DNA of 64,000 nucleotides. Origin: Gammaproteobacteria bacterium AqS3 (GTDB lineage Bacteria; Pseudomonadota; Gammaproteobacteria; MEIF01; AqS3). Numbering within the stretch: position 1 is the first letter of the stretch; the number at the start of each line of letters is the position of its first letter. Below, piece after piece: positions 5,069 to 51,649 of this stretch. A program made the translations under genes and the position numbers. Location: positions 79,322-143,321 of the forward strand of contig MEIF01000228.1 in the NCBI GenBank assembly GCA_001750645.1. The letters are read 5' to 3'. A model generated the notes under the pieces. It saw only the letters and a program-made list of their open reading frames with translations. It searched no databases and was not told where the DNA came from.

Positions 5069-6139
5069 ATGACTAGTCCCCAGCGAGATCTCATTCAAAA
5101 TCTTATTGAAGGAAAAGCCTTGACAATCGCCGACTTCCCTCCGCAATCTAGGCTCAAAAATACCCAATATAGGAAAGTCTCACGGCTCATTTCCGCAGCC
5201 GGCACTTCAGAAAATATCCCAAGGAACTTTCATTCCCTCTGTAGCTTCATTGAAAAAGAAGTTCTTGCGACAGGTGAATCTAATCTCAAAGCTAGGCCCG
5301 TCAGTCGCCCTTACTTTGGAGAAACCGCGCATTACCGCCGCACCGCATCAGCTTTCATTGGAGGAAAGAATTTGATGCATCGTGATTTGAAGTTGGAAGC
5401 TTTGGAAAAATATATCCACAAACAAGCCTACTACTTGCTTCTATCAGTCTTGGCTGGGATGGAAGAAGAAAAAACCACAATGCGTCGAAGTTTCATCAAA
5501 AGCCTCATTGAAAAAGAGGCTTTAATTTTTGGTGATTTCAAGCTGAAATCTGGGCGAAAAAGTCCTTACTTTTTTAACATCGGCAACCTTAGCCAGGGAA
5601 GTTTTGTCAACGTGTTGGGGAGACAGTATGCGGAGTCGATCCAAAACGAATTTGGTTCGCAATCGGAAGGTGACACTGTTCTTTTTGGACCAGCTTACAA
5701 AGGCATTCCGCTGGTCACCGCAACCGCTATGGTGTTGGGTTGGGAAATGGCTTATGACCGCAAAGAGGAAAAAGAGCATGGTGAGGGCGGGCGCCTGTGC
5801 GGCTCGGATCTAGACGGTCGCGAGGTGATTTTGATCGATGATGTTTTGACGGCTGGGACAGCTGTTAGACACTCCGCTGAACTGATTGAAGAGGCGGGCG
5901 GAAAGCTAAAAGGAGTTGTGCTGGCCTTTGATCGTCAGGAAAAGGTGGATAAGCACTCAGGTTTCTCGGCCACGCAGAAATTACAGGAAGACTTGGATGT
6001 GGCTGTAGAGTCATTGGCATGTATGGATGATCTATTGGATTATTTGTTGAACACCAGTGAAGGCGAGGAAGCACTTCCCGATCAACAGGTGAAAAGGATG
6101 TTGCGCTACCGCGAGCGCTACGGCGTCCGGGCCGCCTAG
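5069..6139 (+). CDS. pyrE: Orotate phosphoribosyltransferase-like protein, atypical low GC, with ~140-aa N-terminal extension that duplicates the PyrE N-terminus
   Basis: C-terminal 217 aa from MRRSFIKSLIEKEALIFGDFKLKSGRKSPYFFN through FGPAYKGIPLV to VILIDDVLTAGTA is an unmistakable OPRTase, colinear with E. coli PyrE. Residues 1-25 (MTSPQRDLIQNLIEGKALTIADF) resemble the PyrE N-terminus a second time. GC roughly 43% against ~65% in the flanks. Confidence 0.7.
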   Translation: MTSPQRDLIQNLIEGKALTIADFPPQSRLKNTQYRKVSRLISAAGTSENIPRNFHSLCSFIEKEVLATGESNLKARPVSRPYFGETAHYRRTASAFIGGKNLMHRDLKLEALEKYIHKQAYYLLLSVLAGMEEEKTTMRRSFIKSLIEKEALIFGDFKLKSGRKSPYFFNIGNLSQGSFVNVLGRQYAESIQNEFGSQSEGDTVLFGPAYKGIPLVTATAMVLGWEMAYDRKEEKEHGEGGRLCGSDLDGREVILIDDVLTAGTAVRHSAELIEEAGGKLKGVVLAFDRQEKVDKHSGFSATQKLQEDLDVAVESLACMDDLLDYLLNTSEGEEALPDQQVKRMLRYRERYGVRAA

Positions 6140-11639: not shown

Positions 11640-12551
11640 TCAGTTTTCTTGGCGTCGGCTCGGTCGCTGGATGTCGTAGCGCAGCTTGGGAATATTGCCC
11701 TCGTTGCGATAGAAAAACCCCTGCGTCATCCGGTGCAGGATGCCGAAGGGTGTCGCCTTGGGCAAAATCAATTCGCCGTTTTCGTCCAGTGACGGGTGCT
11801 CGGGATGGTTCAGTTTCAGCAGTTCGACCGCCTTCAGCGCGCTCTCATCCTGATCCAGCTCGTAGTGAGCCGATGCGATCAGCACCAGGGCATCGCCGGT
11901 TTCAGGCGTCTGCGGATAGTCGACCAGAACGCCCTGTGCGCGCCGCAGCGCCCCGATGTAGGCCCGCCGCTTGAAGTAATAGGCGGCCACAGAGATCTCG
12001 TGCTTGGCCAGCAGGCTGCGAATGTAGATCATCCGCTGGCGGGCATCGGCCACCAGCAGGCTGTCGGGAAAGCGCTGGATGAATTCGGCCAGCAGAAAGA
12101 ATGAGCGCCGCCCGGCCTCGATGTCCCTCTGGTAGGCGAAGCGCTGGTTGGTGCGGTTCAGGGCGGTGTAGACCGCCGGAAAGATCGCGATCGCCTTCAT
12201 GTAATAGGCGTAGTCGGTGTTGGGGTGATTGGGGTGCAGTTCGGTGAAGCGCTCGGCGGCGGTTTCTGCTGCGGCGTAGTCGGTGCGCTTGAAATAGGCG
12301 AATATCAGATCGGCCTGTGCCTGCGTGGTGTACTGTCCAAAGGGATGGCGCCGCTCCAGCTCCTCAAGCAGCTGGATCGCCAGCTCGTAATTCCTCGCAT
12401 CCAGGGCATTTTGTGCGCGCTCAAAGTAGACGCGCTCGGACTGGCTCTCCTCGACGGCAGCGGCCTGCTGCTCCTCATCGCCGCCCTTGCTGCCGCATCC
12501 GGCCAGAGACAGGACGACGGCGAGCGCCAGTATCACGGTTAAACTGCGCAT
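11640..12551 (-). CDS. bamD: Outer membrane protein assembly factor BamD
   Basis: Lipobox LSLAGC. TPR-like repeats. Divergent from rluD as in E. coli (bamD / rluD-yfiH). Confidence 0.85.
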   Translation of the reverse strand: MRSLTVILALAVVLSLAGCGSKGGDEEQQAAAVEESQSERVYFERAQNALDARNYELAIQLLEELERRHPFGQYTTQAQADLIFAYFKRTDYAAAETAAERFTELHPNHPNTDYAYYMKAIAIFPAVYTALNRTNQRFAYQRDIEAGRRSFFLLAEFIQRFPDSLLVADARQRMIYIRSLLAKHEISVAAYYFKRRAYIGALRRAQGVLVDYPQTPETGDALVLIASAHYELDQDESALKAVELLKLNHPEHPSLDENGELILPKATPFGILHRMTQGFFYRNEGNIPKLRYDIQRPSRRQEN

Positions 12552-12595
12552 CGACCAGGTGCAGGCGGCAAAAAGCCGCGCATTTTAGCGGATTG

Positions 12596-13570
12596 ATGAG
12601 TTCGGACTGCACCCCCATCATCGACGAGACCGCCTCGGTTCCGCCTGAGCAGGACAGCCGGCGCGCCGATGTCATCGCCGCCTGGGCGTTCCCCGGCTAT
12701 TCCCGCACCCAGCTCACCAGGTGGATTCGAAGCGGCGAGCTGCGCGTTGACGGAGCCGGCGTCCGCCCGAGCCAGGCGCTGAAAGCGGGTCAGCGACTGC
12801 ATCTGCGCGCCCAGGCTCCCCGGGCTGTCGACTACCGGGGCGAGCCGGCCGAATACGCCTGCGTATACGAGGACGAGCACATCCTGGTGGTCGACAAGCC
12901 CGCAGGTCTGGTGGTTCACCCCGGTGCGGGCATCGCCTCGGGAACGCTCGCCAACGCGCTCATCCACGACCGGCCGGAGCTCAGGGGGCTGCCCCGTGCC
13001 GGCATCGTCCACCGGCTGGATGCGCACACCAGCGGGCTGATGGTCATCGCCAAGGATCTGAGGGTGCACTCGGCGCTGGTGCAGATGATGCAGGAGCGAT
13101 CTGTGGAGCGCCGCTATCTCGCCCTGGTGCACGGCGTGCTGATCGCCGGCGGCGAGATCGAGGCACCCATCGGGCGGCATCCCCGCCACCGCACCCGCCA
13201 GGCCGTCGTCAAGGGCGGGCGCTGGGCGCGCACGCACTACCGGGTGCGCGAGCGTTTTCGGCACCACACGCTGATTGAATGCCGACTGGAGACCGGCCGC
13301 ACGCATCAGATCAGGGTGCACTGCGCCCATGCCGGGTTTGCCCTGGTGGGCGATGCCACCTACGGTGCGCACGCAGTGCCCCGAAAGGATCATCTGCCCG
13401 CAGCGGGGGAGCTGTTGAGAGACTTTCGCCGCCAGGCGCTGTGCGCCCATCAGCTGGATCTCGAGCATCCGATCACCGGGCGGGAGTGCTCTTGGAGCAT
13501 TGAGCCGCCCGAGGATCTGCGACAGCTGATCGACGTGCTGCGCTGCGATGCCGACGGAAACCATGACTGA
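12596..13570 (+). CDS. rluD: 23S rRNA pseudouridine synthase RluD
   Basis: HRLDAHTSGLMVIAKD catalytic motif and S4-like N-terminus. The ORF track start at 12317 overlaps bamD, so the internal in-frame ATG at 12596 (MSSDCTPII) was chosen. Confidence 0.85.
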   Translation: MSSDCTPIIDETASVPPEQDSRRADVIAAWAFPGYSRTQLTRWIRSGELRVDGAGVRPSQALKAGQRLHLRAQAPRAVDYRGEPAEYACVYEDEHILVVDKPAGLVVHPGAGIASGTLANALIHDRPELRGLPRAGIVHRLDAHTSGLMVIAKDLRVHSALVQMMQERSVERRYLALVHGVLIAGGEIEAPIGRHPRHRTRQAVVKGGRWARTHYRVRERFRHHTLIECRLETGRTHQIRVHCAHAGFALVGDATYGAHAVPRKDHLPAAGELLRDFRRQALCAHQLDLEHPITGRECSWSIEPPEDLRQLIDVLRCDADGNHD

Positions 13571-14330
13571 GGCGACTGAGGCCTGGGTTGAGCGGGCGGG
13601 GCTGCGCTGGCTTGAGCCGAAGTGGAATGTCCCCGGGGTGTGCGCTGTCTCCCTCAGCCGAGCCGGCGGCAGCAGCGCCGGCGCCTGGGCGGGACTCAAC
13701 CTGTCCGATGCCGTCGGCGATGATCCCGAAGCCGTTGAGGTCAACCGCAGCCGGGTGCGGGACGTGCTGGGCGTGCAGTCGCCCGACTGGATCCGGCAGC
13801 GCCACGGCATTGCCGTTGCCAGAGCCGGCTCGGGGCCGGTCATTGCCGATGCGCTGCTCACCCAGCGCAGCCGGGCCTCTCGGACGCCCTGTGCCATTCT
13901 CAGCGCCGACTGCCTGCCGGTGGTGCTGGCCGCCCGGGACGGCAGAGCGGTCGGCATCGCCCATGCGGGATGGCGCGGCCTGCTCGCCGGTGTCGTCCCC
14001 AATCTGCTGCGCGCACTCGACCTCCCCTCCGGCGAGCTGAGCGCCTGGCTGGCGCCGTGCATCGGGCCCGAGGCCTTCTGGGTCGGCCCCGAAGTGCGCC
14101 GAGCCTATCTGATGCTCTGGGGTGAGATGGCCGAGGGCGAATTTGTCGCCTGCCATGTCGATCGCTGGCAGATGAACCTGGCCGGGCTGGCCGAGCGCCA
14201 GCTGCGGCTTCTGGGCGTGGAGCACATTCTGCGGGGCAGTCACTGCACGCACCGGGATGCCGACACCTTCTACTCGTACCGGCGGGAGCAAACCAGCGGC
14301 CGGCAGGCCACGCTGGCATGGCTGGAGTAG
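13548..14330 (+). CDS. pgeF: Peptidoglycan editing factor / purine nucleoside phosphorylase YfiH (DUF152, laccase-domain)
   Basis: Conserved rluD-yfiH synteny. Conserved His/Cys core (GIAHAGWRG, HCTH). Confidence 0.8.
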   Translation: MPTETMTEATEAWVERAGLRWLEPKWNVPGVCAVSLSRAGGSSAGAWAGLNLSDAVGDDPEAVEVNRSRVRDVLGVQSPDWIRQRHGIAVARAGSGPVIADALLTQRSRASRTPCAILSADCLPVVLAARDGRAVGIAHAGWRGLLAGVVPNLLRALDLPSGELSAWLAPCIGPEAFWVGPEVRRAYLMLWGEMAEGEFVACHVDRWQMNLAGLAERQLRLLGVEHILRGSHCTHRDADTFYSYRREQTSGRQATLAWLE

Positions 14331-14351
14331 CGAAATAGCGGGGTAACAGAT

Positions 14352-15074
14352 TTGCGCGGCAGCGGATACAATCCGCCCCGCCTTTGGCCTTGTCATCCTG
14401 ACCGAGCCGCAGAAAGGGAGCCATTGAACGTGAATGCACTTGAGACTTATCTGAACCTGGGCGGTGGGTTGTCGCCGGATTTTCAAAAGCGGCTGACGGC
14501 TGACGAGGCCGTTGAACTGCTCAAGGCGGGGTATCAGCGCTTTCGAAAGGGGGAGACCTTTAAGCGCCCCAGAGAGACGCTTCTGGCGGATGCCGGGGTC
14601 GGCCAGGCGCCCTATGCCGCCGTGCTCAGCTGCATGGACAGCCGCGTCCCGGTTGAGACCCTGTTTGATGCGGACATCGGGGATCTGTTCGCCATACGGA
14701 TTGCCGGCAACGTCGTCAACGACGACATCATGGCCTCGCTGGAATTTGCCGTGAAATACCTCGGCGCCAAGGCCATCCTGGTTCAGGGGCACACCGACTG
14801 CGGCGCCATCAAGGGGGTCTTCGCCGGGGTTGAGGACGGCCACGTCACCGGACTGCTGGAGCGGATCAAGCCGGCCCTTGAAAAGACCAAGGCAGAGCAC
14901 GGCGAAGAGGCGACCGATGCCTCGCTCCTGGCCTGCACCGAAAACCATGTCGACCACATCCTGGCGACGGTCCGCAGCGAGAGCTCAATCGTCGCCGACA
15001 TGGAAAAATCCGGCGACATCCGCATGCTCGGAGCCGTCTACAACGTCGGCACCGGCGAGGTTGCGTTTCGCTGA
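14352..15074 (+). CDS. can: Beta-class carbonic anhydrase (true start may be the GTG near 14430)
   Basis: CMDSRVP, HTDCGAIKG zinc-ligand motifs. Confidence 0.8.
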   Translation: MRGSGYNPPRLWPCHPDRAAEREPLNVNALETYLNLGGGLSPDFQKRLTADEAVELLKAGYQRFRKGETFKRPRETLLADAGVGQAPYAAVLSCMDSRVPVETLFDADIGDLFAIRIAGNVVNDDIMASLEFAVKYLGAKAILVQGHTDCGAIKGVFAGVEDGHVTGLLERIKPALEKTKAEHGEEATDASLLACTENHVDHILATVRSESSIVADMEKSGDIRMLGAVYNVGTGEVAFR

Positions 15075-15128
15075 TGAGCGGATTGCTTGACTCTGGGTGA
15101 TTTCTAGTAAAAAACAGAAGTCCGGGCT

Positions 15129-17006
15129 TCAAGCATCCAATATCTCAATTTGATCTTCTGAGAAATAACCTTTTTCTATAAGTTCCTCTCGCACTTTGCA
15201 TGGGTTGAGAGTAAACAGAATAATGACTAAATCTTTTTTAGCTCTGGAAAAGCTTACATAAGCCAGTTTTTTGGTTCGATCCTTTTGCTTTTCAGAAGAA
15301 CTTTCACCGGATGTTTCTGGTGACAGTAATTTAGCAAAATTGTAATTATTCCAATTTGTTTCAGTGTCATCATAGAAAACTAAAACTTTGTCATATTCTT
15401 CACCCTTCACACCATGCTGTGTGCTAAACGGAGTATTTTCATAAATAAAGTCGTAATACTTCTCCAATTGATCTGTCTTCATTTCAAAAAATCGATCAGC
15501 CAGCCATTCGCCCTTGTCTTTTTCATGTTCATTTTCGTCATATTCTTCAGACCTGACAGTTCGCTGAATCTGATCAGCAAGTCTGGTGGAAGCGGGAATT
15601 ATTTTGAGCTTGAGAGAGAGCTCAAGTATTTCTCTTAAGGAGCTCTTTTTCCATTCTTTAACTAGAGTCCTTACTGCTTTGCGCGCCTTTTTTCTGACGA
15701 AGCCAAGTGTTTCGTCAGAGCTTGGGCTTAAAAGAGGGCTGGATTCTTGAAGAATCTTAAAAACCTCCTGCTGATCATCTTTATCAAATGCTCGAACAAG
15801 TGGAATTAGCGGGTCAAAAAAGGGCCTTAATAAAAAATGCTCTCCTTTTTGGTAGTCATTTTTAGTTGACAGGCTGGCATAAGGCCCATTGAATAATTCA
15901 TGCAACTCCAGAAACCCCAATCGCCTTGCTATCATTTTATGAGTCAAAAATAAACTTTTAATTTTTGTGTCGTCTTGCCAATTCAGTTTGTCTAGTGCCG
16001 CATCAAACTTGGTGAGTGCGCGATCCATTTGATCACTGCTATAGGTTTTTCTATAGCCTTTTCCTTTTTCAGATTGCACCAGCATTACTTGAACACTGCC
16101 CTGGCAATTCTCTCCGGCTGGAACTTGCTGGACATCTTGTCTAAAGGAATTTAACAGCTGGATTACCGCTTTGGAGCAACGATAATTTTCCCGCTTGGTA
16201 ATTACTTTTAGGTGTGCACCTTCGCTAAAATTATCAGATCGCTCATCATAAATTTGCTGCATGGGATCCCCAAAATATCCAACGATGGGAGGTCCTTCTT
16301 TGGAAGTTAGTAGGTTTAGCGCACAGATAATGGAGGAATCAGTATCTTGTGCCTCATCGACAAAGATATAAGGGTATTTCTGTCCTATGATCTTTTGAAA
16401 GGCCGGAAATTTTTTGATCATCAGCCCTGAAAGCTCGATAACATCATCATGATCCAATTGCCCTTCTTCGTAATTTTTAGATGGGCTGTCATCATATTTG
16501 AATTTTTCGATTTCATTTATATTTTCCAGCACCTGTTCATATTTAGCGATTCTCTCTTGCGCATTTGTTGCGGCAGTACTTCTTCCATTGGCTCTGAGCT
16601 TGTTTTTCGCTATCTGGGATGGGATGATGCAATCTTTTATCATTGTTTTGATTTCTTGTTGAAAGCTTTTGATCTCTCCCCACAAAAATGAGTGAAGGGT
16701 AGAAACTATAAATAAATCATCGAAATTTAAACGTTTCAATATGACATTGACAGCTCTATTGGTGTATGTAATGCATACAACGCGCCGACCCTTTTTTCTA
16801 AGCAGAGCCCTTTTATGCTGTCGAATGTAATCTAGGGCATTAATCAAAGATCTGGTCTTGCCCGATCCTGCACCGGCAACCACAGCAAAGCTTTCATCCT
16901 TATCAATGCAATTTCGAATCTCCCTATCCGAATCCGAGAGAGCATTCCGTTTTGGTGACGTCAAGTCTTTCCTATTGTTCTTCAGCCCGTTGTTCGTTCT
17001 AGTCAT
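15129..17006 (-). CDS. gajB: UvrD/PcrA/Rep-like SF1 helicase, GajB-like (Gabija-like pair 1)
   Basis: Walker A AVVAGAGSGKTRSL, motif II FVDEAQD, C-terminal VSFSRAKKDL. 4-nt overlap with the upstream OLD-family gene. ~36% GC. Confidence 0.7.
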   Translation of the reverse strand: MTRTNNGLKNNRKDLTSPKRNALSDSDREIRNCIDKDESFAVVAGAGSGKTRSLINALDYIRQHKRALLRKKGRRVVCITYTNRAVNVILKRLNFDDLFIVSTLHSFLWGEIKSFQQEIKTMIKDCIIPSQIAKNKLRANGRSTAATNAQERIAKYEQVLENINEIEKFKYDDSPSKNYEEGQLDHDDVIELSGLMIKKFPAFQKIIGQKYPYIFVDEAQDTDSSIICALNLLTSKEGPPIVGYFGDPMQQIYDERSDNFSEGAHLKVITKRENYRCSKAVIQLLNSFRQDVQQVPAGENCQGSVQVMLVQSEKGKGYRKTYSSDQMDRALTKFDAALDKLNWQDDTKIKSLFLTHKMIARRLGFLELHELFNGPYASLSTKNDYQKGEHFLLRPFFDPLIPLVRAFDKDDQQEVFKILQESSPLLSPSSDETLGFVRKKARKAVRTLVKEWKKSSLREILELSLKLKIIPASTRLADQIQRTVRSEEYDENEHEKDKGEWLADRFFEMKTDQLEKYYDFIYENTPFSTQHGVKGEEYDKVLVFYDDTETNWNNYNFAKLLSPETSGESSSEKQKDRTKKLAYVSFSRAKKDLVIILFTLNPCKVREELIEKGYFSEDQIEILDA

Positions 17007-19060
17007 GACGAAGGATTATCCATCACAGACACTAACCATTGCAGGCCTTTGGATATATATTGAGGAGTAACCCATTCAACGTCGCTACTCATCACTTCAA
17101 GAGCAAATTCGGTTTTTTTGTAATTTGGTGACTTTACAGTTGAATAAACTTTTTTGTAATCCTCTGAAAAATTTTCGTCTTCACCAAGTTTTATAAAATT
17201 TTTAAGAAACGAATTTGCTCTAATCAAATTGATGTTGTGGTAAATAAAGGATTCTTCAAAAGTTCTGGGTATCATTTCTTGTTCCCCAGGATAGGGAGAT
17301 ATGGAGTTTTGAAAAGTGATCCCCAGGTCTTTCTGTTCCGGAGAGATATGCAGGTGGGGCTCTTCATTTGATATTTTCAGTAAATCTGAAATAGCTTTTT
17401 TGTTAACAAGAGATGTAATGGTTTTATTGCTGGAAACCGCACCAGATTGGCAGGCCATGCATGCTTTTCGATTCTTTCGAGGGTCGATTGAATCAAGGTC
17501 CGAAATAATGAGAGCTGGCAGGTTTAAGAATTTGATTAAAGGAACTAACTGATGTGCGTATGCCCCTCCTACTTCTAGAATTGTCAAATATTTGCTTGAA
17601 AGATCCCGAGCTTCTTTCTCGATAAATTTTGGCAAAAGCAGTTTCTCGGTGGCCCCTTCAACTAAGACTGCTCCATCTGAGAAAAACAAATCACAGTGAG
17701 TGAGTCTCAGATATTTTTTGAGAAAATTGACATTTTTCTCTGAATTTTCTTTGCTGGAAAAATCTTTTAGATCTAGAATTTTTGTGGCTATTTTTCGATC
17801 ATCAGATTCTTTTATTTCAGACCTGCATCTTTGAAAGTAACGAATGGAGGTGAAATCCCCCTCATCAATAATGTGGGGCGAGTGAGTGCTTATTAAAAGT
17901 TGAGGGTTGGATAATTCGTTATTTTCCGGGTTGCTGCCCCTCTCTATTACTTTTCTTATTTTTCGAATAAATGTTTGTTGCACCTGTGTGTGCAGGTGAA
18001 CTTCAGGCTCTTCGACGAAAATGAGGTGACAGGGCGGTTGAGTTTCTTCTATAGTCAGCCATTTTCTCTGGAAATGACTGATCTGGGCTGCTATATAAAT
18101 GAGGTTCTTGAAACCCAATCCATTGTAGGCTTCCGGCAGTTCATAGTCAGGATATTTGCTGTCTGCGTAAAGTAAAGTGGTACTTCCTTGAAGGGCGTCT
18201 TCTGGCTTCAGAGTTGACGATATTCTTAATTCTCTGTCATTTGCAGATGGAAAACCCAAGTCACTAATAATGTCAAATAATGGATTAAACTGCCTATCGT
18301 AATGTTCAGAAAGTTTTCTGTTGCTCTCATCAATGACTGCGAATGCTTCATCGTCAGCTTCTAATTTTTCCAGATTGGCTTTGTAATACTCATTTAGGAT
18401 GCTAGACAGTCTTGTGCTCCTCGCGGCTTCTTTGTCATCAATGTTCCTTTGAGCGTCGACAAAGTCGACCGCAATTAGGCTTCTTAAAGCTCGCCTTCCT
18501 TCTTCTCCTTCTAAGGCATGCGGCTTTGTCAAACTTTTGTTGAATGAATCACCAGTTTTTTCTAACTTGAAGTATTTCAGACTGAAGTGATTTTTCAGTC
18601 GATCTTTCTCAGATAAAAACCGTGATAGCTTTATATCCGGGCTGGATTTTCTACTGCTGTCAAATTCACTGATTAGTTCAGTTTGATCATTCACTGAAAA
18701 TGAAATTCTGATGCCTATTTCAGAATATTCTTTTTCTAGAGAGGTTAACAAGTTATAAACTTTTCCATATTCAGCTTCTGGATTGATGGAAAACCAAAGA
18801 TCCAAGTCGATCGATGGAATCTTGTTTTCTCTTTCTTTTTCCTCTTCGCCGATCTGATCTATTTTTTGCAATAGCGGTACTGAAAAATCATAAATTTGAA
18901 ATTCAGAGTTCCGCCCAGGAAGAAATAGCCTGAAAATCATGGATGCGGATGTTTTGCCGGAATTGTTCGGACCAACCAGTATGGTGTCCGTATCGCTGAG
19001 ATTGACCTCGACATTTTCCAGTCGCCTGAAATTTCTGACGCAGAATCTATCTAGTTTCAT
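17003..19060 (-). CDS. gajA: OLD-family ABC-type ATPase with C-terminal TOPRIM nuclease domain, GajA-like (Gabija-like pair 1)
   Basis: Walker A GPNNSGKTS. D-loop/Walker B LIFVEEPEVHLH. H-loop STHSPHII. TOPRIM-like VLVEGATEKLLL ... ALIISDLDSIDP. Immediately upstream of and coupled to the UvrD-like gene. Confidence 0.75.
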   Translation of the reverse strand: MKLDRFCVRNFRRLENVEVNLSDTDTILVGPNNSGKTSASMIFRLFLPGRNSEFQIYDFSVPLLQKIDQIGEEEKERENKIPSIDLDLWFSINPEAEYGKVYNLLTSLEKEYSEIGIRISFSVNDQTELISEFDSSRKSSPDIKLSRFLSEKDRLKNHFSLKYFKLEKTGDSFNKSLTKPHALEGEEGRRALRSLIAVDFVDAQRNIDDKEAARSTRLSSILNEYYKANLEKLEADDEAFAVIDESNRKLSEHYDRQFNPLFDIISDLGFPSANDRELRISSTLKPEDALQGSTTLLYADSKYPDYELPEAYNGLGFKNLIYIAAQISHFQRKWLTIEETQPPCHLIFVEEPEVHLHTQVQQTFIRKIRKVIERGSNPENNELSNPQLLISTHSPHIIDEGDFTSIRYFQRCRSEIKESDDRKIATKILDLKDFSSKENSEKNVNFLKKYLRLTHCDLFFSDGAVLVEGATEKLLLPKFIEKEARDLSSKYLTILEVGGAYAHQLVPLIKFLNLPALIISDLDSIDPRKNRKACMACQSGAVSSNKTITSLVNKKAISDLLKISNEEPHLHISPEQKDLGITFQNSISPYPGEQEMIPRTFEESFIYHNINLIRANSFLKNFIKLGEDENFSEDYKKVYSTVKSPNYKKTEFALEVMSSDVEWVTPQYISKGLQWLVSVMDNPSS

Positions 19061-19099
19061 ATTTTTGACTGTACTCGATTATTTCGCTCCAACAGCATT

Positions 19100-21796
19100 C
19101 TAGACGGATGCCCCGGTCGCCTCGTCCGCAGATCTGGGGGTGAAGGTCAGCTGCCCGCCCTCGGCGCCCACGTCGAGTGCGGTCCCGGACGGGTATTTGT
19201 CCTCCAGCAGCAGCTGCGAGAGCGGATTGAGCAGGTGGGTTTCGATGGCGCGGCGGATCGGTCGGGCGCCGTAGATCGGCGAGTATCCGGCCGAGGCCAG
19301 GAAGTTCTCGGCGTCCTCCGACAGCACGATGTCCAGATCCTGCTGCTGCAGCCGCCGGCGCAGGTGCCGGATCTGAATGCCGATGATGTCGCGCACGTGC
19401 TCGCGCGCCAATGGATCAAACAGCACGATCTCGTCGACGCGGTTGAGAAACTCGGGCAGAAAGTGCTGGCGCAGCCGCTCCTGGACTGCGCGCTGCACGG
19501 TCTCGCGCTCGACATTCTGCTCGACCATTCGGGTGATCTCATCGGCGGCCAGGTTGGAAGTCATCACCACGACCACGTTGCGAAAGTCCACGGTGCGACC
19601 CTGGCCGTCGGTCAGGCGCCCGTCGTCGAGCACCTGCAGCAGCACGTTGAAGACATCAATGTGCGCCTTTTCTATTTCATCGAGCAGCAGCACCATGTAG
19701 GGCTGGCGCCGCACCGCCTCGGTCAGATAGCCGCCGTCCTCGTGGCCGACGTAGCCGGGCGGGGCGCCGATCAGGCGTGAGACCGAGTGCTGCTCCATGA
19801 ACTCGGACATGTCAATGCGCACCATGGCCTGCTCGGAGTCGAACAGAAACTCGGCCAGCGCCTTGCACAGCTCGGTCTTGCCGACCCCGGTCGGGCCGAG
19901 AAACATGAACGAGCCGTTGGGACGGCCCGGATCAGCCAGGCCGACCCGGGCGCGCCGGACGACGTTGGCCACCGCAGTCAGGGCGGCCTCCTGTCCGACC
20001 ACGCGCTGCCGCAGGGCATCCTCGATGTGCAGCAGGCGCTCCCGCTCCCCCTGGCGCAGCCGCATCACCGGAATGCCGGTCCACTTGGCGATGACCTCGG
20101 TGACCTCGTCTTCGGTGACGCGGTCGCGCAGCAGCCGGCTGGGGGAGTCCCCGTCCTCGGCCGCATCGCTGTCGCTGTCGCTGTCGCTCTGCGCGGAGGT
20201 GCGCTCGGCCTGAAGCATCTGCTTCTCCAGCTCGGGAATGCGCCCGTACTTGAGCTCGGACATGCGGGTCAGATCGTTGTCCCGGCTGGCCTGCTCCAAC
20301 TCCAGCTTGGCCTGCTCGAGTGCGCTCTTGAACTGCGCGGCGCCCTCGACCTTGGCTTTTTCGGCGCGCCAGACTTCCTCCAGGCCGGCGTACTCGGCCT
20401 CGACCTCGGCGATCTCCGCCTCCAGCGACTGCAGCCGCTCGGCGGCCTCGGCCTCGGTTTCCTTGCTGAGCGCCTCGCGCTCCATCTGCAGCTGCACCAG
20501 CCGGCTGTGGAGGCGGTCCATCGGCTCCGGCAGCGAGTCGATTTCCATGCGGATCTGGCTGGCGGCCTCGTCGATGATGTCAATCGCCTTGTCGGGCAGA
20601 TTGCGCTCGGGGATGTAGCGCACCGACAGCCGCGTCGCTGCGATCAGTGCCGAGTCGGTGATCGACACGCCGTGATGCACCTCGTAGCGCTCCTTCAGCC
20701 CGCGCAGGATGGCGATGGTGTCCTCCTCGCTGGGGGTGTTGACCAGCACTTTCTGGAAGCGCCGCTCGAGCGCCTTGTCCTTTTCGATGTACTGGCGGTA
20801 CTCGTCGAGCGTGGTCGCCCCGATGCAGTGCAGCTCGCCCCGCGCCAGCGCCGGCTTGAGCATGTTGCCGGCGTCCATGGCTCCCGAGGTGCGGCCGGCC
20901 CCGACCACCGTGTGCAGCTCGTCGATGAAGATGATGTACTCGTCGCGGTGCTGCTCGAGCTCCTTCAGCACCGCCTTGAGGCGCTCCTCAAATTCGCCGT
21001 GGTACTTGGCGCCGGCGATCAGGGCCGAGAGATCCAGCGAGAGGATTTCGCGGCTGCGCATGGCCTCGGGGACCTGGCCGTTGACGATGCGCTGCGCCAG
21101 CCCCTCGACGATGGCGGTCTTGCCGACGCCGGGTTCGCCGTAGAGCACCGGGTTGTTCTTGGTGCGCCGCTGCAGCACCTGGATGGTGCGGCGGATCTCC
21201 TCGTCGCGTCCGATGACCGGATCCAGCTTGCCCTCGCGCGCCAGGGCCGTCATGTTGACGGTGTAGCGCTGGAGGGCATCGCGCTCGTCCTCGCTGGAGG
21301 GCGAGCTGACCGGACCCTGCCGGCTGCGCAGCTCGTCGATGCGCTGGTGCAGCTGGGTCAGGTCGACACCGGAGCGCTGCAGCAGCTGGCCGATGGCCTC
21401 GCCCTCGCCGCTCGCCGCCAGCAGAAAGTGCTCGCTGGCGATGAACTTGTCGCCCCGCCTGTGCGCCTGGCTGTGCGCCACCTGCAGATGGCGTCGCAGT
21501 TCCCGGTGCGGAACGATCTCGCCCTGCTCGGCATCCGCCGATTTCGGCAGCGCCTCGATGCGGGCCTCCAGCAGCTCTTTCAGGGTTTCGGTTGAGCCGC
21601 CGGCCTGCTGGATCAGGGGCGAGATGCTGTTGTCCAGCTGTCGCAGCAGCACCAGCAGAACGTGCTCGCTCTGCACCTGCAGCTGACCCGAGGTGCGCGC
21701 GAACAGCTGCGCCTCCTCAATGGCTTGGGTGAATCTTCTGGTGAAGTGTTCCTGCACGGTAATGAGGGGAGATGTCCACGCCCCTTTAATGGTCAT
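19100..21796 (-). CDS. clpB: Chaperone ClpB (AAA+ disaggregase); start at ATG 21796 or GTG 21757
   Basis: Two AAA+ modules ([16 protein letters not shown]), coiled-coil M-domain, [14 protein letters not shown]-domain. The ORF track's extra ~300 N-terminal codons are a high-GC artefact. Confidence 0.95.
20166..20189 (-). repeat. Hexanucleotide SSR (TCGCTG)x4 on the + strand inside clpB, encoding (SD)4
   Basis: Read directly: tcgctgtcgctgtcgctgtcgctc. In-frame (SD)n insert in the ClpB linker ([17 protein letters not shown]). Confidence 0.8.
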
Positions 21797-25881: not shown

Positions 25882-27714
25882 TCACCACCCGCAGGAGCGA
25901 CCGGCGTTCTGCTCATCGAGCCATATCTTCAGCGGTGCAAAGTACTCCTGAATGACGCTGGCATCCATGCTGCGCTGACCGGCGAGCACTTCCATGGTGT
26001 CCTGCCACGGACGGCTCAATCCCATCTCCAAGGCCTTGATCAGGCGCTCACCGGCCTCCTTGCTGTCGTAGACGGTGCACAGGTGCAGGGGGCCTTCGTA
26101 ACCGGCGCTCTTGCACAGCGCCTTGTGGAACTGGAACTGCTGAATGTGCGCCAGAAAGTAGCGCATGTAGGGCGTATTTCCGGGGATGTGGTATTTGGCG
26201 CCGGGGTCGAAGTTGTCCTCGGTGCGCTCCACCGGCGGGACGATGCCCTGGTACTTCAGGCGCAGATCCCACCAACCCTGATTCCATTTGCTCTCGGGCA
26301 ATTCACCGCTGAACACCTGCCAGCGCCACTTGTCGATCAGCAGACCGAACGGCAGAAAAGCGATCTTGTCCAGCGCCTGCCGCAGCAGCATGGAAATGTC
26401 GTCGCGCTGGCGGGGCGCCTCCTCGAGCATTCCGATCTTGACCAGGTAGTCGGGCGTGATCGACAGGGCAATGGTGTCGCCAATGGCCTCGTGAAAGCCG
26501 TCGTTGGCTCCGCCTCTCAGCAGCAGCGGCAGGTGTTTGTAGGCGCGCTGATAGAAGTTGTGGCCGAGCTCGTGGTGGATGGTTGAGAAATCCTCGGCAT
26601 CCGGCTTGATGCACATCTTGATGCGGATGTCATCCTGATCGTCCAGATTCCAGGCGCTCGCATGGCAGACCACGTCGCGATCACGCGGCTTGAGGAACAG
26701 GGAGCGATCCCAGAAAGTCTTGGGAAGGGGCTCAAACCCGAGGGAGGTGAAGAATTTTTCGGCGATTCGCACCATCTCGACCTCATCGGTATCCGCCAGC
26801 AGGGCGTCAAGGTCGTAGCCCGCCCCCACTCCGGAGCCGGCGGGCTTGATCAGGTCGTAGACATTGCCCCACTGCTGCGCCCACATGTTGCCCAGCAGAT
26901 GCGCCGGGATCGGCTTGTCCAGGGGGACCTGATCGTCGCCGTAGCGCTCGTTCAGCTTGGCGCGCACGTGGCAGTGCAGTGCGGTGTAGAACGGCTTGAC
27001 CTGATCCCAGAGACGATCCATCTCCTGGACGAAGGTATCGGGTCTCATGTCATACCCGCTGCGCCACAGATGCCCGATATCCTCATAGCCCAGATCGCGC
27101 GCACCCTCGTTGCCGAGCTGCACCAGCTCCTGGTATTCGCTCCGCATCGGCGGGGAGATGGTGCGCCAGCCCTTCCAGGCCTCCAGCAGATCGTTGTAAT
27201 TGCGGCTCTTGGCCATCACCTCGGACAGCTCGCCGAGATTGCGGCAGCTTTCGGTCCCGTCGGGCTGCTCTTGGCAGTAGGTGCCCTTGCCGTACGTCCC
27301 CTCCAGGCTGGCCTCGATTTCTGAGAGTCGCTTGCTCTTTTCCGGGTCGCCCGGCGGCGGCAGGGTCAGCCCGCCCTTGAGGATTTCCAGCTGCCGGCGA
27401 ACCTCCAGGGGCAGTGCGATGCCGTCAAAGTAGGGAGCCTTGACCGCGTACTCCTTGACGATCGACTTGACCTGCTCGGAGGTGTAGGCGCTCAGCTCCT
27501 GGCTGTCGTAGGTGATGAAGTTGGCGGCAATCCAGGCTGCGTGGGCAGCGGCCTTGCCGGGCCCCTCCAGATCTTTTTCAAGATCTTGGAGAAACTGCCT
27601 GGCCCCGGCCTCGTTCCGGGAATACTCCTCCTGAGAGCAGGAACCGAGCAGCAGTGCGACCGACCACAGGGCGGCCAGAGCGACCGCCTTGGAAAAACCC
27701 CTGATTTTGTCCAT
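25882..27714 (-). CDS. M2-family peptidyl-dipeptidase (bacterial ACE-like zinc metallopeptidase), lipoprotein
   Basis: HHELGH zinc motif plus downstream E. ~610 aa. Lipobox LLLGSC. Confidence 0.75.
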   Translation of the reverse strand: MDKIRGFSKAVALAALWSVALLLGSCSQEEYSRNEAGARQFLQDLEKDLEGPGKAAAHAAWIAANFITYDSQELSAYTSEQVKSIVKEYAVKAPYFDGIALPLEVRRQLEILKGGLTLPPPGDPEKSKRLSEIEASLEGTYGKGTYCQEQPDGTESCRNLGELSEVMAKSRNYNDLLEAWKGWRTISPPMRSEYQELVQLGNEGARDLGYEDIGHLWRSGYDMRPDTFVQEMDRLWDQVKPFYTALHCHVRAKLNERYGDDQVPLDKPIPAHLLGNMWAQQWGNVYDLIKPAGSGVGAGYDLDALLADTDEVEMVRIAEKFFTSLGFEPLPKTFWDRSLFLKPRDRDVVCHASAWNLDDQDDIRIKMCIKPDAEDFSTIHHELGHNFYQRAYKHLPLLLRGGANDGFHEAIGDTIALSITPDYLVKIGMLEEAPRQRDDISMLLRQALDKIAFLPFGLLIDKWRWQVFSGELPESKWNQGWWDLRLKYQGIVPPVERTEDNFDPGAKYHIPGNTPYMRYFLAHIQQFQFHKALCKSAGYEGPLHLCTVYDSKEAGERLIKALEMGLSRPWQDTMEVLAGQRSMDASVIQEYFAPLKIWLDEQNAGRSCGW

Positions 27715-27720
27715 TTGAAA

Positions 27721-29514
27721 TTAATTCCCCCCGTTGGCAACCCATTCATCGATCAAACTCTCGAGAATGTCCAGAGGCACGGCGCCGTTTTGCAGCACCA
27801 CCTCGTGAAACTTGCGGATGTCAAAATTTTCGCCCAGCTGCTCGCGCGCGCCCTCGCGCAGCTCGAGGATCTTCATCATTCCGATCTTGTAGGCGGTGGC
27901 CTGGCCGGGCATGACGATGTAGCGCTCGATGGATTTGGCTGAGTCGTTCTCGGGGTTCGGGGTGTTTTCAATCAGCCAGTCGATGGCCTGCTGGCGGGTC
28001 CACTTCTTGCTGTGCAGGCCGGTGTCCACCACCAGGCGGGCGCTGCGCCAGAGCTCCATGGCCAGTCGACCGAAATCCGAGTACGGATCCTGATACATGC
28101 CGACCTCCTTCGGCAGATATTCCGAATACAGCCCCCAGCCCTCGATGTAGGCCGTGAAGTTGCTCAGCTTGCGGAACTCGGGAACCCCCTCCAGCTCGGC
28201 TGCGACGGCCAGCTGCAGGTGGTGGCCGGGAACGCCCTCGTGATAGGCCAGCGCCTCCATCTGATATTTCGGCATGTCGGCCATGACGGACAGGTTGGCG
28301 TAGTAGATCCCCGGGCGCGATCCATCCGGGGCGGGGCGCGAGTAGAACGCCTTGCCGGCGGCCTTCTCGCGGAACTTCTCGACCCGCTTGACCTTCAGCT
28401 TGGAAGTCGGAATGGTGATGAACTGCTCGCCCAGCTTGGCCTCCATGGCATCGATGATCTTCTGGGTGTCGTCCAGATAAGCCTGCCTGCCGGCATCGGT
28501 TTCCGGGTAGTAGAACTGCTTGTCGCTGCGCATGAACTTGAAGAAGGCCTGCAGGTCGCCGCGGAAATTGACTTGCTTGCGCAGCTCGTCCATCTCGGCG
28601 TGAACGCGCTTGACATCCTCCAGACCCTTTTGGTGGATCTCATCCGCCGTCATGTCGGTTGTGGTGTAGCTGCGCAGCTGGAAGTTGTAGTACTCCTCGC
28701 CGTCGGGCAGCTTCCAGACCCCGTCGTCCTCGGTGGCCTTGCTTTCAAGGTCGCGCAGCACGCCGATCAGCTGTCGATAGCCGGCGCTGAACTGCAGCAG
28801 CAAGGCATTGGAGGCGCGCTCGATGAGTTTGTCAGTTTTGGCCTGGTCAAGGTTCAGCGCCTTCACCTTCTTGACGAAGTCGGCGTAGACGGCGTTGTCA
28901 AAATCGTCCTTCTTGTTCAGAGGCTTGCCCGACAGCACGCGCTCGCTGGTTCCGATCACCAGAGGGTAGACGAACTTGGGCGGGAAGATGCCCTCCTTCT
29001 GCTGTTTCTGCAGGAGCACATTGACCTGCTTGAGCAGCTTCTCGACTCCCCTGATGCGCTCGATGTAGGCGAGGGCATCCTCCTCGGAGTCGATTCTGTG
29101 GAAGTTGATCAGCAGGGCGGGTATCCCTGCCTGGACGCCGAACATCTGGTTGACCGGATAGGTGTGCAGGCGCCAGCGGTTGCGCTCGATCTGGCGCTCC
29201 AGCATGCGCTCGAACAGATCGTAGTTCAGGCGGTTTTCGGGGGTGAGCTGGTCATAGCTGAGACCGCGCAGCTCTTCTAACTGACGCTGAGCCATCCTGT
29301 AGCTCATATCCATGTCGCGCTCGGCGTAGCTGTCCCACTCCCCGTAGCGTTCCCTTCGTCCCAGAGCCGTCAGCGTCTCCGGCGAGGTCATCAGCTGCTC
29401 CTCGTAAGCCTTGGCGAAGAATTCCTCGGCTGATTCATTGGCGAGCTGATTCAGATACTCACAGCCCCCCAGCAGAAAAGCCATGAGAACGACAGTGAAT
29501 AGGCGATAGTGCAT
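27721..29514 (-). CDS. DUF885-family putative metallopeptidase lipoprotein
   Basis: HEGVPGHHLQ motif. Lipobox FLLGGC after the ATG at 29514. Confidence 0.6.
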   Translation of the reverse strand: MHYRLFTVVLMAFLLGGCEYLNQLANESAEEFFAKAYEEQLMTSPETLTALGRRERYGEWDSYAERDMDMSYRMAQRQLEELRGLSYDQLTPENRLNYDLFERMLERQIERNRWRLHTYPVNQMFGVQAGIPALLINFHRIDSEEDALAYIERIRGVEKLLKQVNVLLQKQQKEGIFPPKFVYPLVIGTSERVLSGKPLNKKDDFDNAVYADFVKKVKALNLDQAKTDKLIERASNALLLQFSAGYRQLIGVLRDLESKATEDDGVWKLPDGEEYYNFQLRSYTTTDMTADEIHQKGLEDVKRVHAEMDELRKQVNFRGDLQAFFKFMRSDKQFYYPETDAGRQAYLDDTQKIIDAMEAKLGEQFITIPTSKLKVKRVEKFREKAAGKAFYSRPAPDGSRPGIYYANLSVMADMPKYQMEALAYHEGVPGHHLQLAVAAELEGVPEFRKLSNFTAYIEGWGLYSEYLPKEVGMYQDPYSDFGRLAMELWRSARLVVDTGLHSKKWTRQQAIDWLIENTPNPENDSAKSIERYIVMPGQATAYKIGMMKILELREGAREQLGENFDIRKFHEVVLQNGAVPLDILESLIDEWVANGGN

Positions 29515-29702
29515 AACCGACCCTCTTTGGGTGGAAATTAAGCCGAGCATTGTAATGGCAACTCAGCCGAATATTCATAGCGGGCGGGTTGAATGGGTTC
29601 GCCGCCAAGCAACGGACTTTTATTGGGATGAGTGGATGGTTGACCCAATCCGCCCTTTTCAGTTGAGTTGGGGTGCATATTGGCCCACGCAGAGGCCTGT
29701 TC

Positions 29703-34045: not shown

Positions 34046-34122
34046 TGGCGCGCCCGGCAGGATTCGAACCTGCGACCAACGGCTTCGGAAGCCGCTACTC
34101 TATCCAGCTGAGCTACGGGCGC
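34046..34122 (-). tRNA. tRNA-Arg (anticodon CCG)
   Basis: Reverse complement folds as a canonical cloverleaf: acceptor GCGCCCG/CGGGCGC, D-arm GCTCAGCTGGATAGAGT, anticodon loop TTCCGAA, T-arm GCAGGTTCGAATCCTGC, 3' GCCA. Confidence 0.85.
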
Positions 34123-51257: not shown

Positions 51258-51649
51258 TGATGGACGAGTGCCTGGAGCGAATCTTTGAGGAACTGAAGGG
51301 TCTGGGCTATGACCCTTATTACGCGGACTGGCCGCAGGGGAAAAAGGTGGTCATCAAATACAGGATTCTCACGGGCAAATACGCCAATCAAACGGTCTTG
51401 CTGGGGGTCTCAAACCCGGATGGCCCCTATCCTGAATACCCTCCGCATTGGATTCACATTAGCCCGCTGCACGACGATGGATTGGGAGGGCCAGTAGAAA
51501 TCTATTCAAGTGAAAATGAAAAGGGGCAGACCTGTGAATGGGGCGCATTGAGCCGCCCTCCTCGCGATATTTGGGATCAGCTGCCGGAAAAAAGCATGAA
51601 GTCATTTCTTAATGAACATGTTGGCCGCTTTTGCAAAGCCCTGAAGTGA
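51257..51649 (+). CDS. Prokaryotic E2 (UBC-like) conjugating enzyme candidate
   Basis: 130 aa. HPN-like segment YPPHWIHISP followed by a conserved Cys (GQTCEWG). Start overlaps the upstream stop. Overlaps the downstream E1 gene by 19 nt. Confidence 0.5.
   Translation: MMDECLERIFEELKGLGYDPYYADWPQGKKVVIKYRILTGKYANQTVLLGVSNPDGPYPEYPPHWIHISPLHDDGLGGPVEIYSSENEKGQTCEWGALSRPPRDIWDQLPEKSMKSFLNEHVGRFCKALK

What the first reader, a model, noticed from the sequence alone, without database searches (positions are those of the whole stretch)
15075..19099. Very low-GC (~36%) Gabija-like gene pair inserted between convergent can and clpB
An OLD-family ABC ATPase with C-terminal TOPRIM (685 aa) is followed, with a 4-nt overlap, by a UvrD-like SF1 helicase (625 aa). 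This is the GajA/GajB architecture of the Gabija antiphage system. The pair exactly fills the gap between two native convergent genes with roughly 30 percentage points lower GC. No integrase, IS or tRNA is nearby, so the insertion mechanism is unclear. Both proteins are ~100 aa longer than canonical GajA/GajB.
Basis: partly seen in the sequence, partly recalled or inferred. Interest (0 to 1): 0.55.

Follow-up and report, generated by a model that had tools for sequence, protein, structure and literature searches.

The report
Horizontally acquired Gabija antiphage gene pair
A sponge-symbiont bacterium carries an intact, foreign-looking two-gene Gabija antiviral system (a DNA-cutting ATPase and a helicase-like partner) between two housekeeping genes; this is an ordinary example of one of the commonest bacterial defence systems.

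Summary
Two overlapping minus-strand genes, gajA (17003-19060, 685 aa) and gajB (15129-17006, 625 aa), fill the gap between convergent can and clpB. Spacers are 54 and 39 bp. GC is 39.1% (not ~36%), against 62-67% in the flanks. This is the lowest-GC 4 kb of the window, and both composition boundaries fall at the neighbours' stop codons.

Both proteins match curated Gabija profiles end to end (PADLOC GajA E=9e-203, GajB E=4e-168). All ATPase, TOPRIM and SF1 helicase motifs are intact.

The predicted GajA fold is closest to solved Bacillus cereus GajA. The GajB fold is closer to Rep/PcrA/UvrD than to B. cereus GajB.

The "extra 100 aa" is normal for this subfamily: 514 cluster representatives at E<=1e-30, mostly 650-780 aa. 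Members sit beside a helicase gene in low-GC islands and on conjugative plasmids.

The host is the MAG 'Gammaproteobacteria bacterium AqS3' from the sponge Amphimedon queenslandica. It has no close relatives in the searched collections, so no empty site could be found. No integrase, IS, tRNA or flanking repeats mark the insertion.

A second, 29%-identical Gabija pair lies 10.6 kb away, beside tRNA-Arg.

Verdict: a new member of a known kind, of low interest.

The parts
17003..19060 (-). gajA: OLD-family ABC-type ATPase with C-terminal TOPRIM nuclease, 685 aa (NCBI MBF2754405.1, annotated 'ATP-dependent endonuclease')
   Evidence: Pfam AAA_15 (1-398, E=2.4e-49) and OLD-like_TOPRIM (459-523, E=6.1e-18). 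PADLOC GajA PDLC00093 E=8.6e-203, full length. AF2 model pLDDT 82; top Foldseek PDB hits are B. cereus GajA 8u7i/8x5i/8sm3 at E~1e-19. Identity of the record.
18950..18973 (-). GajA Walker A (G30-P-N-N-S-G-K36-T37)
   Evidence: Read from the translation. G30, N32, N33, K36, T37 and S38 are invariant in 38 homologues.
17492..17686 (-). GajA TOPRIM core, with catalytic E468 (in VEGATE) and D521/D523 (in SDLD)
   Evidence: Pfam OLD-like_TOPRIM covers 459-523. The profile alignment to B. cereus GajA places E379 of that protein in the invariant VEG motif, whose Glu is E468 in the window protein, and D432/D434 in the DxD motif (window D521/D523). E379A is the nuclease-dead mutant used in PMC10781630. 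E468, E472, D521 and D523 are invariant in the family.
15129..17006 (-). gajB: UvrD-like SF1 helicase-family ATPase, 625 aa (NCBI MBF2754406.1, annotated 'ATP-dependent helicase'); its start overlaps the gajA stop (ATGA)
15075..15128 (.). 54-bp spacer between the can stop and the gajB stop (GC 46%); imperfect hairpin spanning 15080-15139
   Evidence: Fold energies are -21 to -25 kcal/mol with z-scores of -1.6 to -1.9, so not significant. No consensus terminator was called.
19061..19099 (.). 39-bp spacer between the clpB stop and the gajA start (GC 36%); no terminator, no sigma-70-like promoter, no Shine-Dalgarno sequence
   Evidence: The fold is less stable than shuffled sequence (z=+1.1).
14430..15074 (+). 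can (beta-carbonic anhydrase, 214 aa, MBF2754407.1): native left flank, GC 62%
   Evidence: Pfam Pro_CA E=1.4e-38; exact match to the NCBI protein; GC3 76%.
19100..21796 (-). clpB (898 aa, MBF2754404.1): native right flank, GC 67%, directly upstream of gajA on the same strand
   Evidence: Pfam Clp_N, AAA, AAA_lid_9, AAA_2 and ClpB_D2-small; 100% match to the AqS3 ClpB; GC3 90%.

Best explanation
The region is an intact two-gene Gabija antiphage system (gajA-gajB) of the common 'long' subfamily. It was acquired by horizontal transfer from a low-GC donor and now sits as a bare cassette downstream of clpB in the chromosome of the sponge symbiont 'Gammaproteobacteria bacterium AqS3'. What is shown here: the gene pair, its domain content, full-length matches to Gabija profiles, intact catalytic motifs, a foreign composition with razor-sharp boundaries, and the same gene pair in islands and on plasmids elsewhere. 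What is inferred by homology with studied Gabija systems: GajA (ABC-type ATPase plus TOPRIM nuclease) oligomerises and docks GajB into a GajAB complex. The TOPRIM site (E468, D521, D523) nicks or cuts invading DNA. GajA's nucleotide-binding domain and GajB's DNA-end-stimulated (d)NTPase activity gate the nuclease, so that phage DNA is attacked and the chromosome is not. In B. cereus the trigger is nucleotide depletion. In P. aeruginosa PA14 the target is linear DNA ends not occupied by RecBCD. Expression is probably by read-through from clpB or from an unrecognised promoter, because no terminator or promoter lies in the 39-bp spacer. That last point is inference only.
Against: There is no experimental evidence for this locus or, as far as I could establish, for this exact subfamily. 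Similarity to the type system is remote. Structural alignments give 12-15% identity for GajA. B. cereus GajB is not found by a profile of the window's GajB family even at E<=10, and it ranks 42nd by Foldseek. The GajB mechanism may therefore differ. No empty site, mobile-element gene or flanking repeat documents the insertion. The sequence is a MAG contig, so the junctions are not independently verified.
Confidence: 0.88

Rival explanations
1. Assembly or binning artefact. The 4-kb low-GC segment belongs to another organism in the sponge metagenome and was joined into the AqS3 contig by misassembly.
For: The source is a MAG. The composition contrast is extreme and the switch is abrupt. No related genome confirms the junctions.
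Against: This would need two chimeric joins, each landing in a short intergenic spacer right after a stop codon and leaving all four genes intact. The segment is internal to a contig reported as 311.5 kb. The window holds several other low-GC patches with defence genes, including a second Gabija pair, which fits real, frequent gene acquisition.
Confidence: 0.04
2. The pair is a Class 2 OLD nuclease plus helicase module whose main role is not phage defence. Candidate roles are DNA repair or recombination, or exclusion and competition between mobile elements such as plasmids.
For: The same pair sits on conjugative Phaeobacter plasmids next to a relaxase and an SbcCD-like 'DNA repair exonuclease' plus 'AAA family ATPase' pair. 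The GajB model is closer to the bona fide repair and replication helicases Rep/PcrA/UvrD than to B. cereus GajB. PA14 Gabija also acts on plasmids (abstract of PMC12407980).
Against: Scores for the housekeeping helicase models are far below their cut-offs (57 bits against more than 900). The nearest homologues lie among restriction-modification and other defence genes. Every tested OLD-plus-UvrD pair named in the papers read here defends against phage.
Confidence: 0.06
3. The pair is a silent or decaying relic: acquired DNA that is not expressed in the symbiont and is on its way to loss.
For: No recognisable promoter or Shine-Dalgarno sequence lies upstream of gajA. Codon usage is very unlike the host's. 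The host is a vertically inherited symbiont (abstract of 10.64898/2026.08.05.743132). In one homologue locus (L085) the helicase gene is split.
Against: Both reading frames are full length with every catalytic motif intact. The overlapping ATGA junction is preserved. Placement 39 bp downstream of clpB with no terminator favours read-through transcription.
Confidence: 0.1

Closest known systems
Bacillus cereus VD045 Gabija (GajA 578 aa and GajB about 494 aa; PDB 8SM3, 8U7I, 8J4T, 8JQB)
   Different: Structural alignments give only 12-15% identity for GajA. The window GajA is 107 aa longer: about +60 in the ATPase-domain insert, +29 between Walker B and TOPRIM, and +18 at the C-terminus (offsets taken). 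The window GajB is about 130 aa longer and aligns with B. cereus GajB over only 257 residues, against 393 for Rep. There is no sequence-level hit between the GajB families.
Long-form Gabija subfamily covered by PADLOC models PDLC00093/PDLC00095 (GajA) and PDLC00143/PDLC00111 (GajB)
   Same: Both proteins match end to end at E<=1e-168, and the profile lengths (736 and 632) fit the observed sizes. Hundreds of homologues of 650-780 aa and 609-630 aa occur in many phyla and on plasmids.
   Different: The nearest relative is only 61% (GajA) and 56% (GajB) identical, so this is a distinct lineage within the subfamily.
Pseudomonas aeruginosa PA14 Gabija (PAPI-1 island)
   Same: It is a gammaproteobacterial gajA-gajB operon on acquired DNA, and both genes and their ATPase, TOPRIM and DExx residues are required (PMC12407980).
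   Different: I could not obtain its sequence, so its relationship to this subfamily is untested. Its GajB motif II is DESQ, whereas here it is DEAQ.
Class 2 OLD nucleases (Burkholderia pseudomallei and Xanthomonas campestris C-terminal regions, PDB 6NK8 and 6NJV) and the Class 1 OLD nuclease of Thermus scotoductus (6P74)
   Same: The TOPRIM region matches at E=1e-11, 2.7e-10 and 1.3e-11 with the family profile. By my own knowledge of the OLD classification, Class 2 is defined by a neighbouring UvrD/PcrA/Rep-like helicase gene, which is the case here.
   Different: Those structures come from biochemical studies of the nuclease alone. Class 1 enzymes lack the helicase partner.
Second Gabija pair in the same window (gajA2 31582-33900, gajB2 29703-31592, minus strand)
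   Same: It has the same best PADLOC GajA model (PDLC00093, E=1.4e-281) and matches the same two GajB models (PDLC00111 best at E=4.8e-245, PDLC00143 at E=6.3e-221). It has the same orientation and is also a bare two-gene cassette.
   Different: It is only 29% identical in both proteins. Its GC is 49.5% rather than 39%, and it lies beside tRNA-Arg. It is therefore an independent acquisition, not a duplication.

Membership tests
Gabija (GajA/GajB) antiphage system | GajA: a single polypeptide with an N-terminal ABC-type (AAA_15) ATPase and a C-terminal OLD-type TOPRIM nuclease | tested here: met
   Pfam AAA_15 at 1-398 and OLD-like_TOPRIM at 459-523. The AF2 model is closest to solved GajA.
Gabija (GajA/GajB) antiphage system | GajB: a UvrD-like SF1 helicase-family protein encoded immediately next to gajA in the same orientation | tested here: met
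Gabija (GajA/GajB) antiphage system | Both proteins match curated Gabija profile HMMs over their full length, and those are their best defence-system matches | tested here: met
   PADLOC GajA E=8.6e-203 and GajB E=4.4e-168. The next non-Gabija models (AriA, Old, RTasHel) are far weaker and partial.
Gabija (GajA/GajB) antiphage system | Catalytic residues intact: GajA Walker A/B and TOPRIM Glu plus DxD; GajB motifs I and II | tested here: met
   K36, E350/E351, E468 and D521/D523 in GajA; K50 and D217-E218 in GajB. All are invariant in the family alignments. The Glu and DxD align to B. cereus E379 and D432/D434.
Gabija (GajA/GajB) antiphage system | Detectable homology to the experimentally validated B. 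cereus VD045 proteins | tested here: inconclusive
Gabija (GajA/GajB) antiphage system | GajA and GajB assemble into a hetero-oligomeric (4:4) complex | not testable with these tools
   Only monomer models were made. Complex prediction or purification is needed.
Gabija (GajA/GajB) antiphage system | Protection against phage that needs both genes | not testable with these tools
   Experimental test required.
Class 2 OLD-family nuclease | OLD nuclease (ATPase plus TOPRIM) encoded in tandem with a UvrD/PcrA/Rep-like helicase (definition from my own knowledge of the OLD classification) | tested here: met
   The profile hits 'Class 2 OLD family nuclease' 6nk8 at E=1e-11.
Housekeeping UvrD / Rep / PcrA helicases | Score above the NCBIfam equivalog cut-off | tested here: not met
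   The rep, pcrA and uvrD models score 33-58 bits against cut-offs of 911-1168.
PARIS (AriA/AriB) | AriA ATPase without TOPRIM, plus a separate TOPRIM/DUF4435 AriB gene | tested here: not met
   The AriA model matches only residues 1-398. TOPRIM is fused in the same protein, and the partner gene is a helicase.
Retron Eco8-type OLD effector | OLD effector above the NF038234 cut-off, with a reverse transcriptase and msr/msd RNA nearby | tested here: not met
   57 bits against a cut-off of 250. No reverse-transcriptase domain was found in the neighbouring ORFs scanned. No Rfam hit other than the tRNA.
Integrase-mediated genomic island | Integrase or transposase gene, tRNA or att target, and flanking direct repeats | tested here: not met
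   No such domains in the ORFs scanned on either side. The nearest tRNA is 15 kb away. There are no flanking repeats. The only shared 7-mer is expected in 34% of shuffles.

The most novel reading that the evidence does not exclude
The long subfamily represented here may be a mechanistically distinct Gabija variant. Its GajB keeps a fuller UvrD/Rep-like body (393 residues superpose on Rep, against 257 on B. cereus GajB), so it could be a true translocase or helicase rather than the non-unwinding NTPase described for B. cereus. In addition, in AqS3 the cassette, placed with no terminator 39 bp downstream of clpB, may be expressed as part of the heat-shock (clpB) transcript, which would couple antiviral defence to stress.
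Probability: 0.12. Interest if true: 0.4.

Novelty: new member of a known kind. Interest (0 to 1): 0.15.

Why it matters
The finding adds one clear, intact Gabija system to a vertically inherited sponge symbiont. Together with the second pair, a split MmeI-type restriction enzyme and other low-GC patches, it is part of a small defence arsenal. This fits the known richness of defence genes in sponge-associated bacteria, where Gabija has been mentioned before. It has modest value for annotation, because NCBI names the two proteins only 'ATP-dependent endonuclease' and 'ATP-dependent helicase'. It is also a reminder that most Gabija systems in nature are of a long form only remotely similar to the B. 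cereus model system, especially in GajB. It does not open a new question.

Tried and rejected
1. Empty-site search. The single genome-contig scan with the carbonic anhydrase gave one hit, at 43% identity. The metagenome-contig scan gave 80 loci, all at 48% identity or less. The nearest non-self ClpB scores 1178 bits and the rest are about 60% identical; that nearest one has different neighbours.

2. Exact look-up of the AqS3 ClpB contig found nothing on record.

3. The GajA homology search did not return the protein itself. Its 90% cluster is represented by an unrelated 30-aa peptide (P0242), which is a clustering artefact and not a second copy.

4. Flanking direct or inverted repeats and target-site duplication: nothing beyond chance.

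5. A promoter or terminator between clpB and gajA: none found.

6. Non-coding RNA in the region: none.

7. Rejected identities: housekeeping Rep/UvrD/PcrA, PARIS, Septu PtuA and the retron Eco8 effector.

8. Phage origin: only 8 phage records match, at 28% identity or less.

9. I could not establish whether the PA14 or ECOR94 Gabija systems belong to this long subfamily.
Full report
**Observation**

The window has two long minus-strand ORFs at 17003-19060 (685 aa) and 15129-17006 (625 aa). They overlap by the four bases ATGA.

- To the left, a beta-carbonic anhydrase gene ends at 15074 on the plus strand.
- To the right, clpB ends at 19100 on the minus strand.
- The pair therefore sits between convergent can and clpB, co-directional with clpB. 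Only 54 bp and 39 bp of spacer remain.

GC of 15075-19099 is 39.1% and GC3 of both genes is 37%. In the neighbours, GC is 62% (can) and 67% (clpB), and GC3 is 76% and 90%. In 40-bp steps the composition switches exactly at the two stop codons. This is the lowest-GC 4-kb stretch of the window. All 4-kb windows outside it average 60.7% (sd 4.8, minimum 49.2).

**Source**

Exact-sequence look-up identifies the four genes as consecutive NCBI proteins MBF2754404-MBF2754407:

- ClpB
- 'ATP-dependent endonuclease'
- 'ATP-dependent helicase'
- carbonic anhydrase

They come from the MAG 'Gammaproteobacteria bacterium AqS3', on a contig reported as 311.5 kb. AqS3 is one of three dominant, vertically inherited symbionts of the sponge Amphimedon queenslandica. 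The AqS3 papers I read say nothing about Gabija or defence systems.

**What the genes are**

*The 685-aa protein.* It carries AAA_15 (residues 1-398) and OLD-like TOPRIM (459-523). Against PADLOC, the best hits are Gabija GajA models matched end to end: PDLC00093 at E=8.6e-203, residues 1-681 on 1-723 of 736.

*The 625-aa protein.* It carries UvrD-helicase, AAA_19 and UvrD_C. It matches GajB model PDLC00143 at E=4.4e-168, residues 23-623 on 9-630 of 632.

*Other models score poorly.*

- AriA (PARIS) matches the ATPase half only.
- P2 Old and the DRT helicase model are much weaker.
- NCBIfam models for Rep, PcrA, UvrD, the retron Eco8 effector and PtuA score 21-58 bits against cut-offs of 250-1168.

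*Motifs are intact and invariant in 38 and 35 homologues respectively*.

- GajA: Walker A (G30..K36-T37), Q-loop Q204, NGLG signature 313-316, Walker B E350/E351, H393, TOPRIM E468 and D521/D523.
- GajB: motifs I (G45..K50-T51), II (DEAQD, 217-221), III, IV (R276), V and VI.

**Relationship to the studied system**

*GajA.*

- A single-sequence search of the PDB finds B. cereus GajA only weakly (E~1e-5).
- A profile of the family makes it the best hit (E=6e-14). That alignment places the nuclease-dead position E379 in the motif holding window E468, and D432/D434 in the motif holding D521/D523 (E379A from PMC10781630).
- The AlphaFold model (pLDDT 82, pTM 0.79) matches solved B. cereus GajA structures first (E about 1e-19).
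- Thermus OLD and retron Eco8 OLD follow.

*GajB.* The picture differs.

- The model is confident (pLDDT 89).
- Foldseek ranks PcrA, UvrD and Rep first (E~1e-22) and B. cereus GajB only 42nd (E=4e-12).
- The family profile does not detect B. cereus GajB even at E<=10.

So the window's helicase shares the two RecA-like cores with B. cereus GajB. Its accessory parts are larger and more like Rep or UvrD. The published GajB structure has divergent accessory subdomains and showed no helicase activity (PMC10681800).

**The extra length is not unusual**

Against B. cereus (GajA 578 aa; GajB chains 493-499 aa) the window proteins are about 107 and 130 aa longer. However:

- The best-matching PADLOC profiles are 736 and 632 positions long.
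- The 120 best GajA homologues are mostly 680-730 aa, and the GajB homologues 600-632 aa.
- An exhaustive search of 1.84 billion cluster representatives finds 514 at E<=1e-30, mostly 650-780 aa.

The pairing is conserved:

- All three nearest loci carry a UvrD-type gene directly after the ATPase gene.
- So do conjugative Phaeobacter plasmids, with the same 4-nt overlap.
- At least 27 listed GajA and GajB homologues report identical longest-contig lengths.

**Origin**

The nearest homologues (61, 58 and 53% identity) lie in DNA of 29-34% GC.

- One lies among an MmeI-type enzyme, a DEAD helicase and a T5orf172 protein.
- One lies next to an integrase fragment and an excisionase-like HTH gene, inside a 42-49% GC genome.

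A low-GC donor and spread on islands and plasmids is therefore the simplest history.

In AqS3 nothing marks the route.

- The neighbours are housekeeping genes: H+-pyrophosphatase, DUF5916, bamD, rluD, pgeF and can on one side; clpB, hemB and rho on the other.
- No integrase or transposase domain was found in the ORFs scanned on either side.
- The only tRNA is 15 kb away.
- There are no flanking repeats. The one shared 7-mer is expected in a third of shuffles.

The syntenic comparison could not be done. AqS3 has no close relative in the genome or metagenome collections: the carbonic anhydrase reaches 48% identity at most, and most ClpB relatives are about 60% identical. The closest ClpB relative has different neighbours.

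The insertion is thus inferred from composition alone, but that evidence is strong. An assembly chimera is unlikely. It would need two joins placed exactly in short spacers after stop codons, inside a 311-kb contig that carries other foreign patches.

**How it most likely works**

By homology (inferred, not shown here):

- GajA forms the nuclease core, and GajB docks to give a GajAB complex that cleaves phage DNA (PMC10781630, PMC10822852).
- GajA is a nicking endonuclease held in check by nucleotides (PMC8136825).
- GajB is a DNA-end-stimulated (d)NTPase (bioRxiv 10.1101/2023.05.02.539174).
- In P. aeruginosa PA14 the system is non-abortive and attacks linear DNA ends that RecBCD does not occupy (PMC12407980).

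For this locus, the 39-bp spacer after clpB has no terminator, no promoter match and no Shine-Dalgarno sequence. Read-through from clpB is therefore the most economical guess for expression.

**Comparison and verdict**

The locus meets every sequence-testable criterion of Gabija, equivalently a Class 2 OLD nuclease with its helicase. It belongs to a large, already modelled subfamily. It is only remotely similar to the B. cereus type system, especially in GajB. Gabija is reported in 13-15% of prokaryotic genomes and has been mentioned in sponge holobiont studies.

The most novel reading still open is twofold: the long GajB may be a real helicase, and the cassette may be expressed with clpB. I give this a probability of about 0.12.

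**Seen in passing**

- A second, independent Gabija pair of the same subfamily lies 10.6 kb away beside tRNA-Arg.
- A split MmeI-type restriction-modification gene, an E1-like protein and further low-GC patches are listed separately.

Noticed in passing
window 29703-33900 (-), next to tRNA-Arg(CCG) at 34046-34122 (-): A second complete Gabija pair. gajA2 is 31582-33900 (772 aa counted from the ATG where the profile match begins) and gajB2 is 29703-31592 (629 aa). PADLOC gives GajA PDLC00093 at E=1.4e-281 and GajB PDLC00111 at E=4.8e-245. GC is 49.5%. It is only 29% identical to the first pair in both proteins, so it is an independent acquisition. No tRNA-derived direct repeat was found at its far end, and no integrase was found in the flanking ORFs scanned.
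   Followed up: partly
window 59365-62146 (+): An MmeI-like type IIG restriction-modification enzyme is split into two overlapping ORFs (59365-60930 and 60698-62146). Together they cover one PADLOC REase_MTase_IIG model (positions 2-515 and 512-909 of 912). This suggests a frameshift, from either a pseudogene or a sequencing error. GC is about 52%.
   Followed up: partly
window 51631-54034: A low-GC patch (42-56%) holds a ThiF/E1-like protein (51631-53124, +; weak PADLOC E1-E2 matches at E~1e-16, over the adenylation domain only) and a 311-aa ORF with no Pfam or PADLOC match (53099-54034, -). It may be another defence or ubiquitin-like conjugation module.
   Followed up: no
window 5069-6139 (+): An isolated low-GC (47%) ORF of 356 aa has a C-terminal phosphoribosyltransferase domain (E=6.7e-13) and no PADLOC match. 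It sits among genes of 63-67% GC.
   Followed up: no
window 25882-27714 (-): A full-length angiotensin-converting-enzyme homologue (Peptidase_M2, E=1.8e-216) lies next to a DUF885 protein (27721-29550, -). This is a eukaryote-like peptidase in an animal symbiont.
   Followed up: no
window 11640-21796: The insertion lies in a neighbourhood that, from memory of the E. coli map, is conserved in Gammaproteobacteria: bamD, rluD, pgeF/yfiH and clpB. Here can and the Gabija pair lie between pgeF and clpB, and clpB faces the other way.
   Followed up: no
protein collection, cluster of the window's GajA (P0241/P0242); locus L004: The 90%-identity cluster holding the window's GajA is represented by an unrelated 30-aa peptide from a 2.2-kb ENA contig. 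This hides the protein from the homology search and is a database artefact.
   Followed up: yes
L085 12178-14020: In the homologue locus with the third-closest GajA (56-58% identity), the helicase gene is called as two pieces (290 and 271 aa). It may be a frameshifted or decaying gajB.
   Followed up: no
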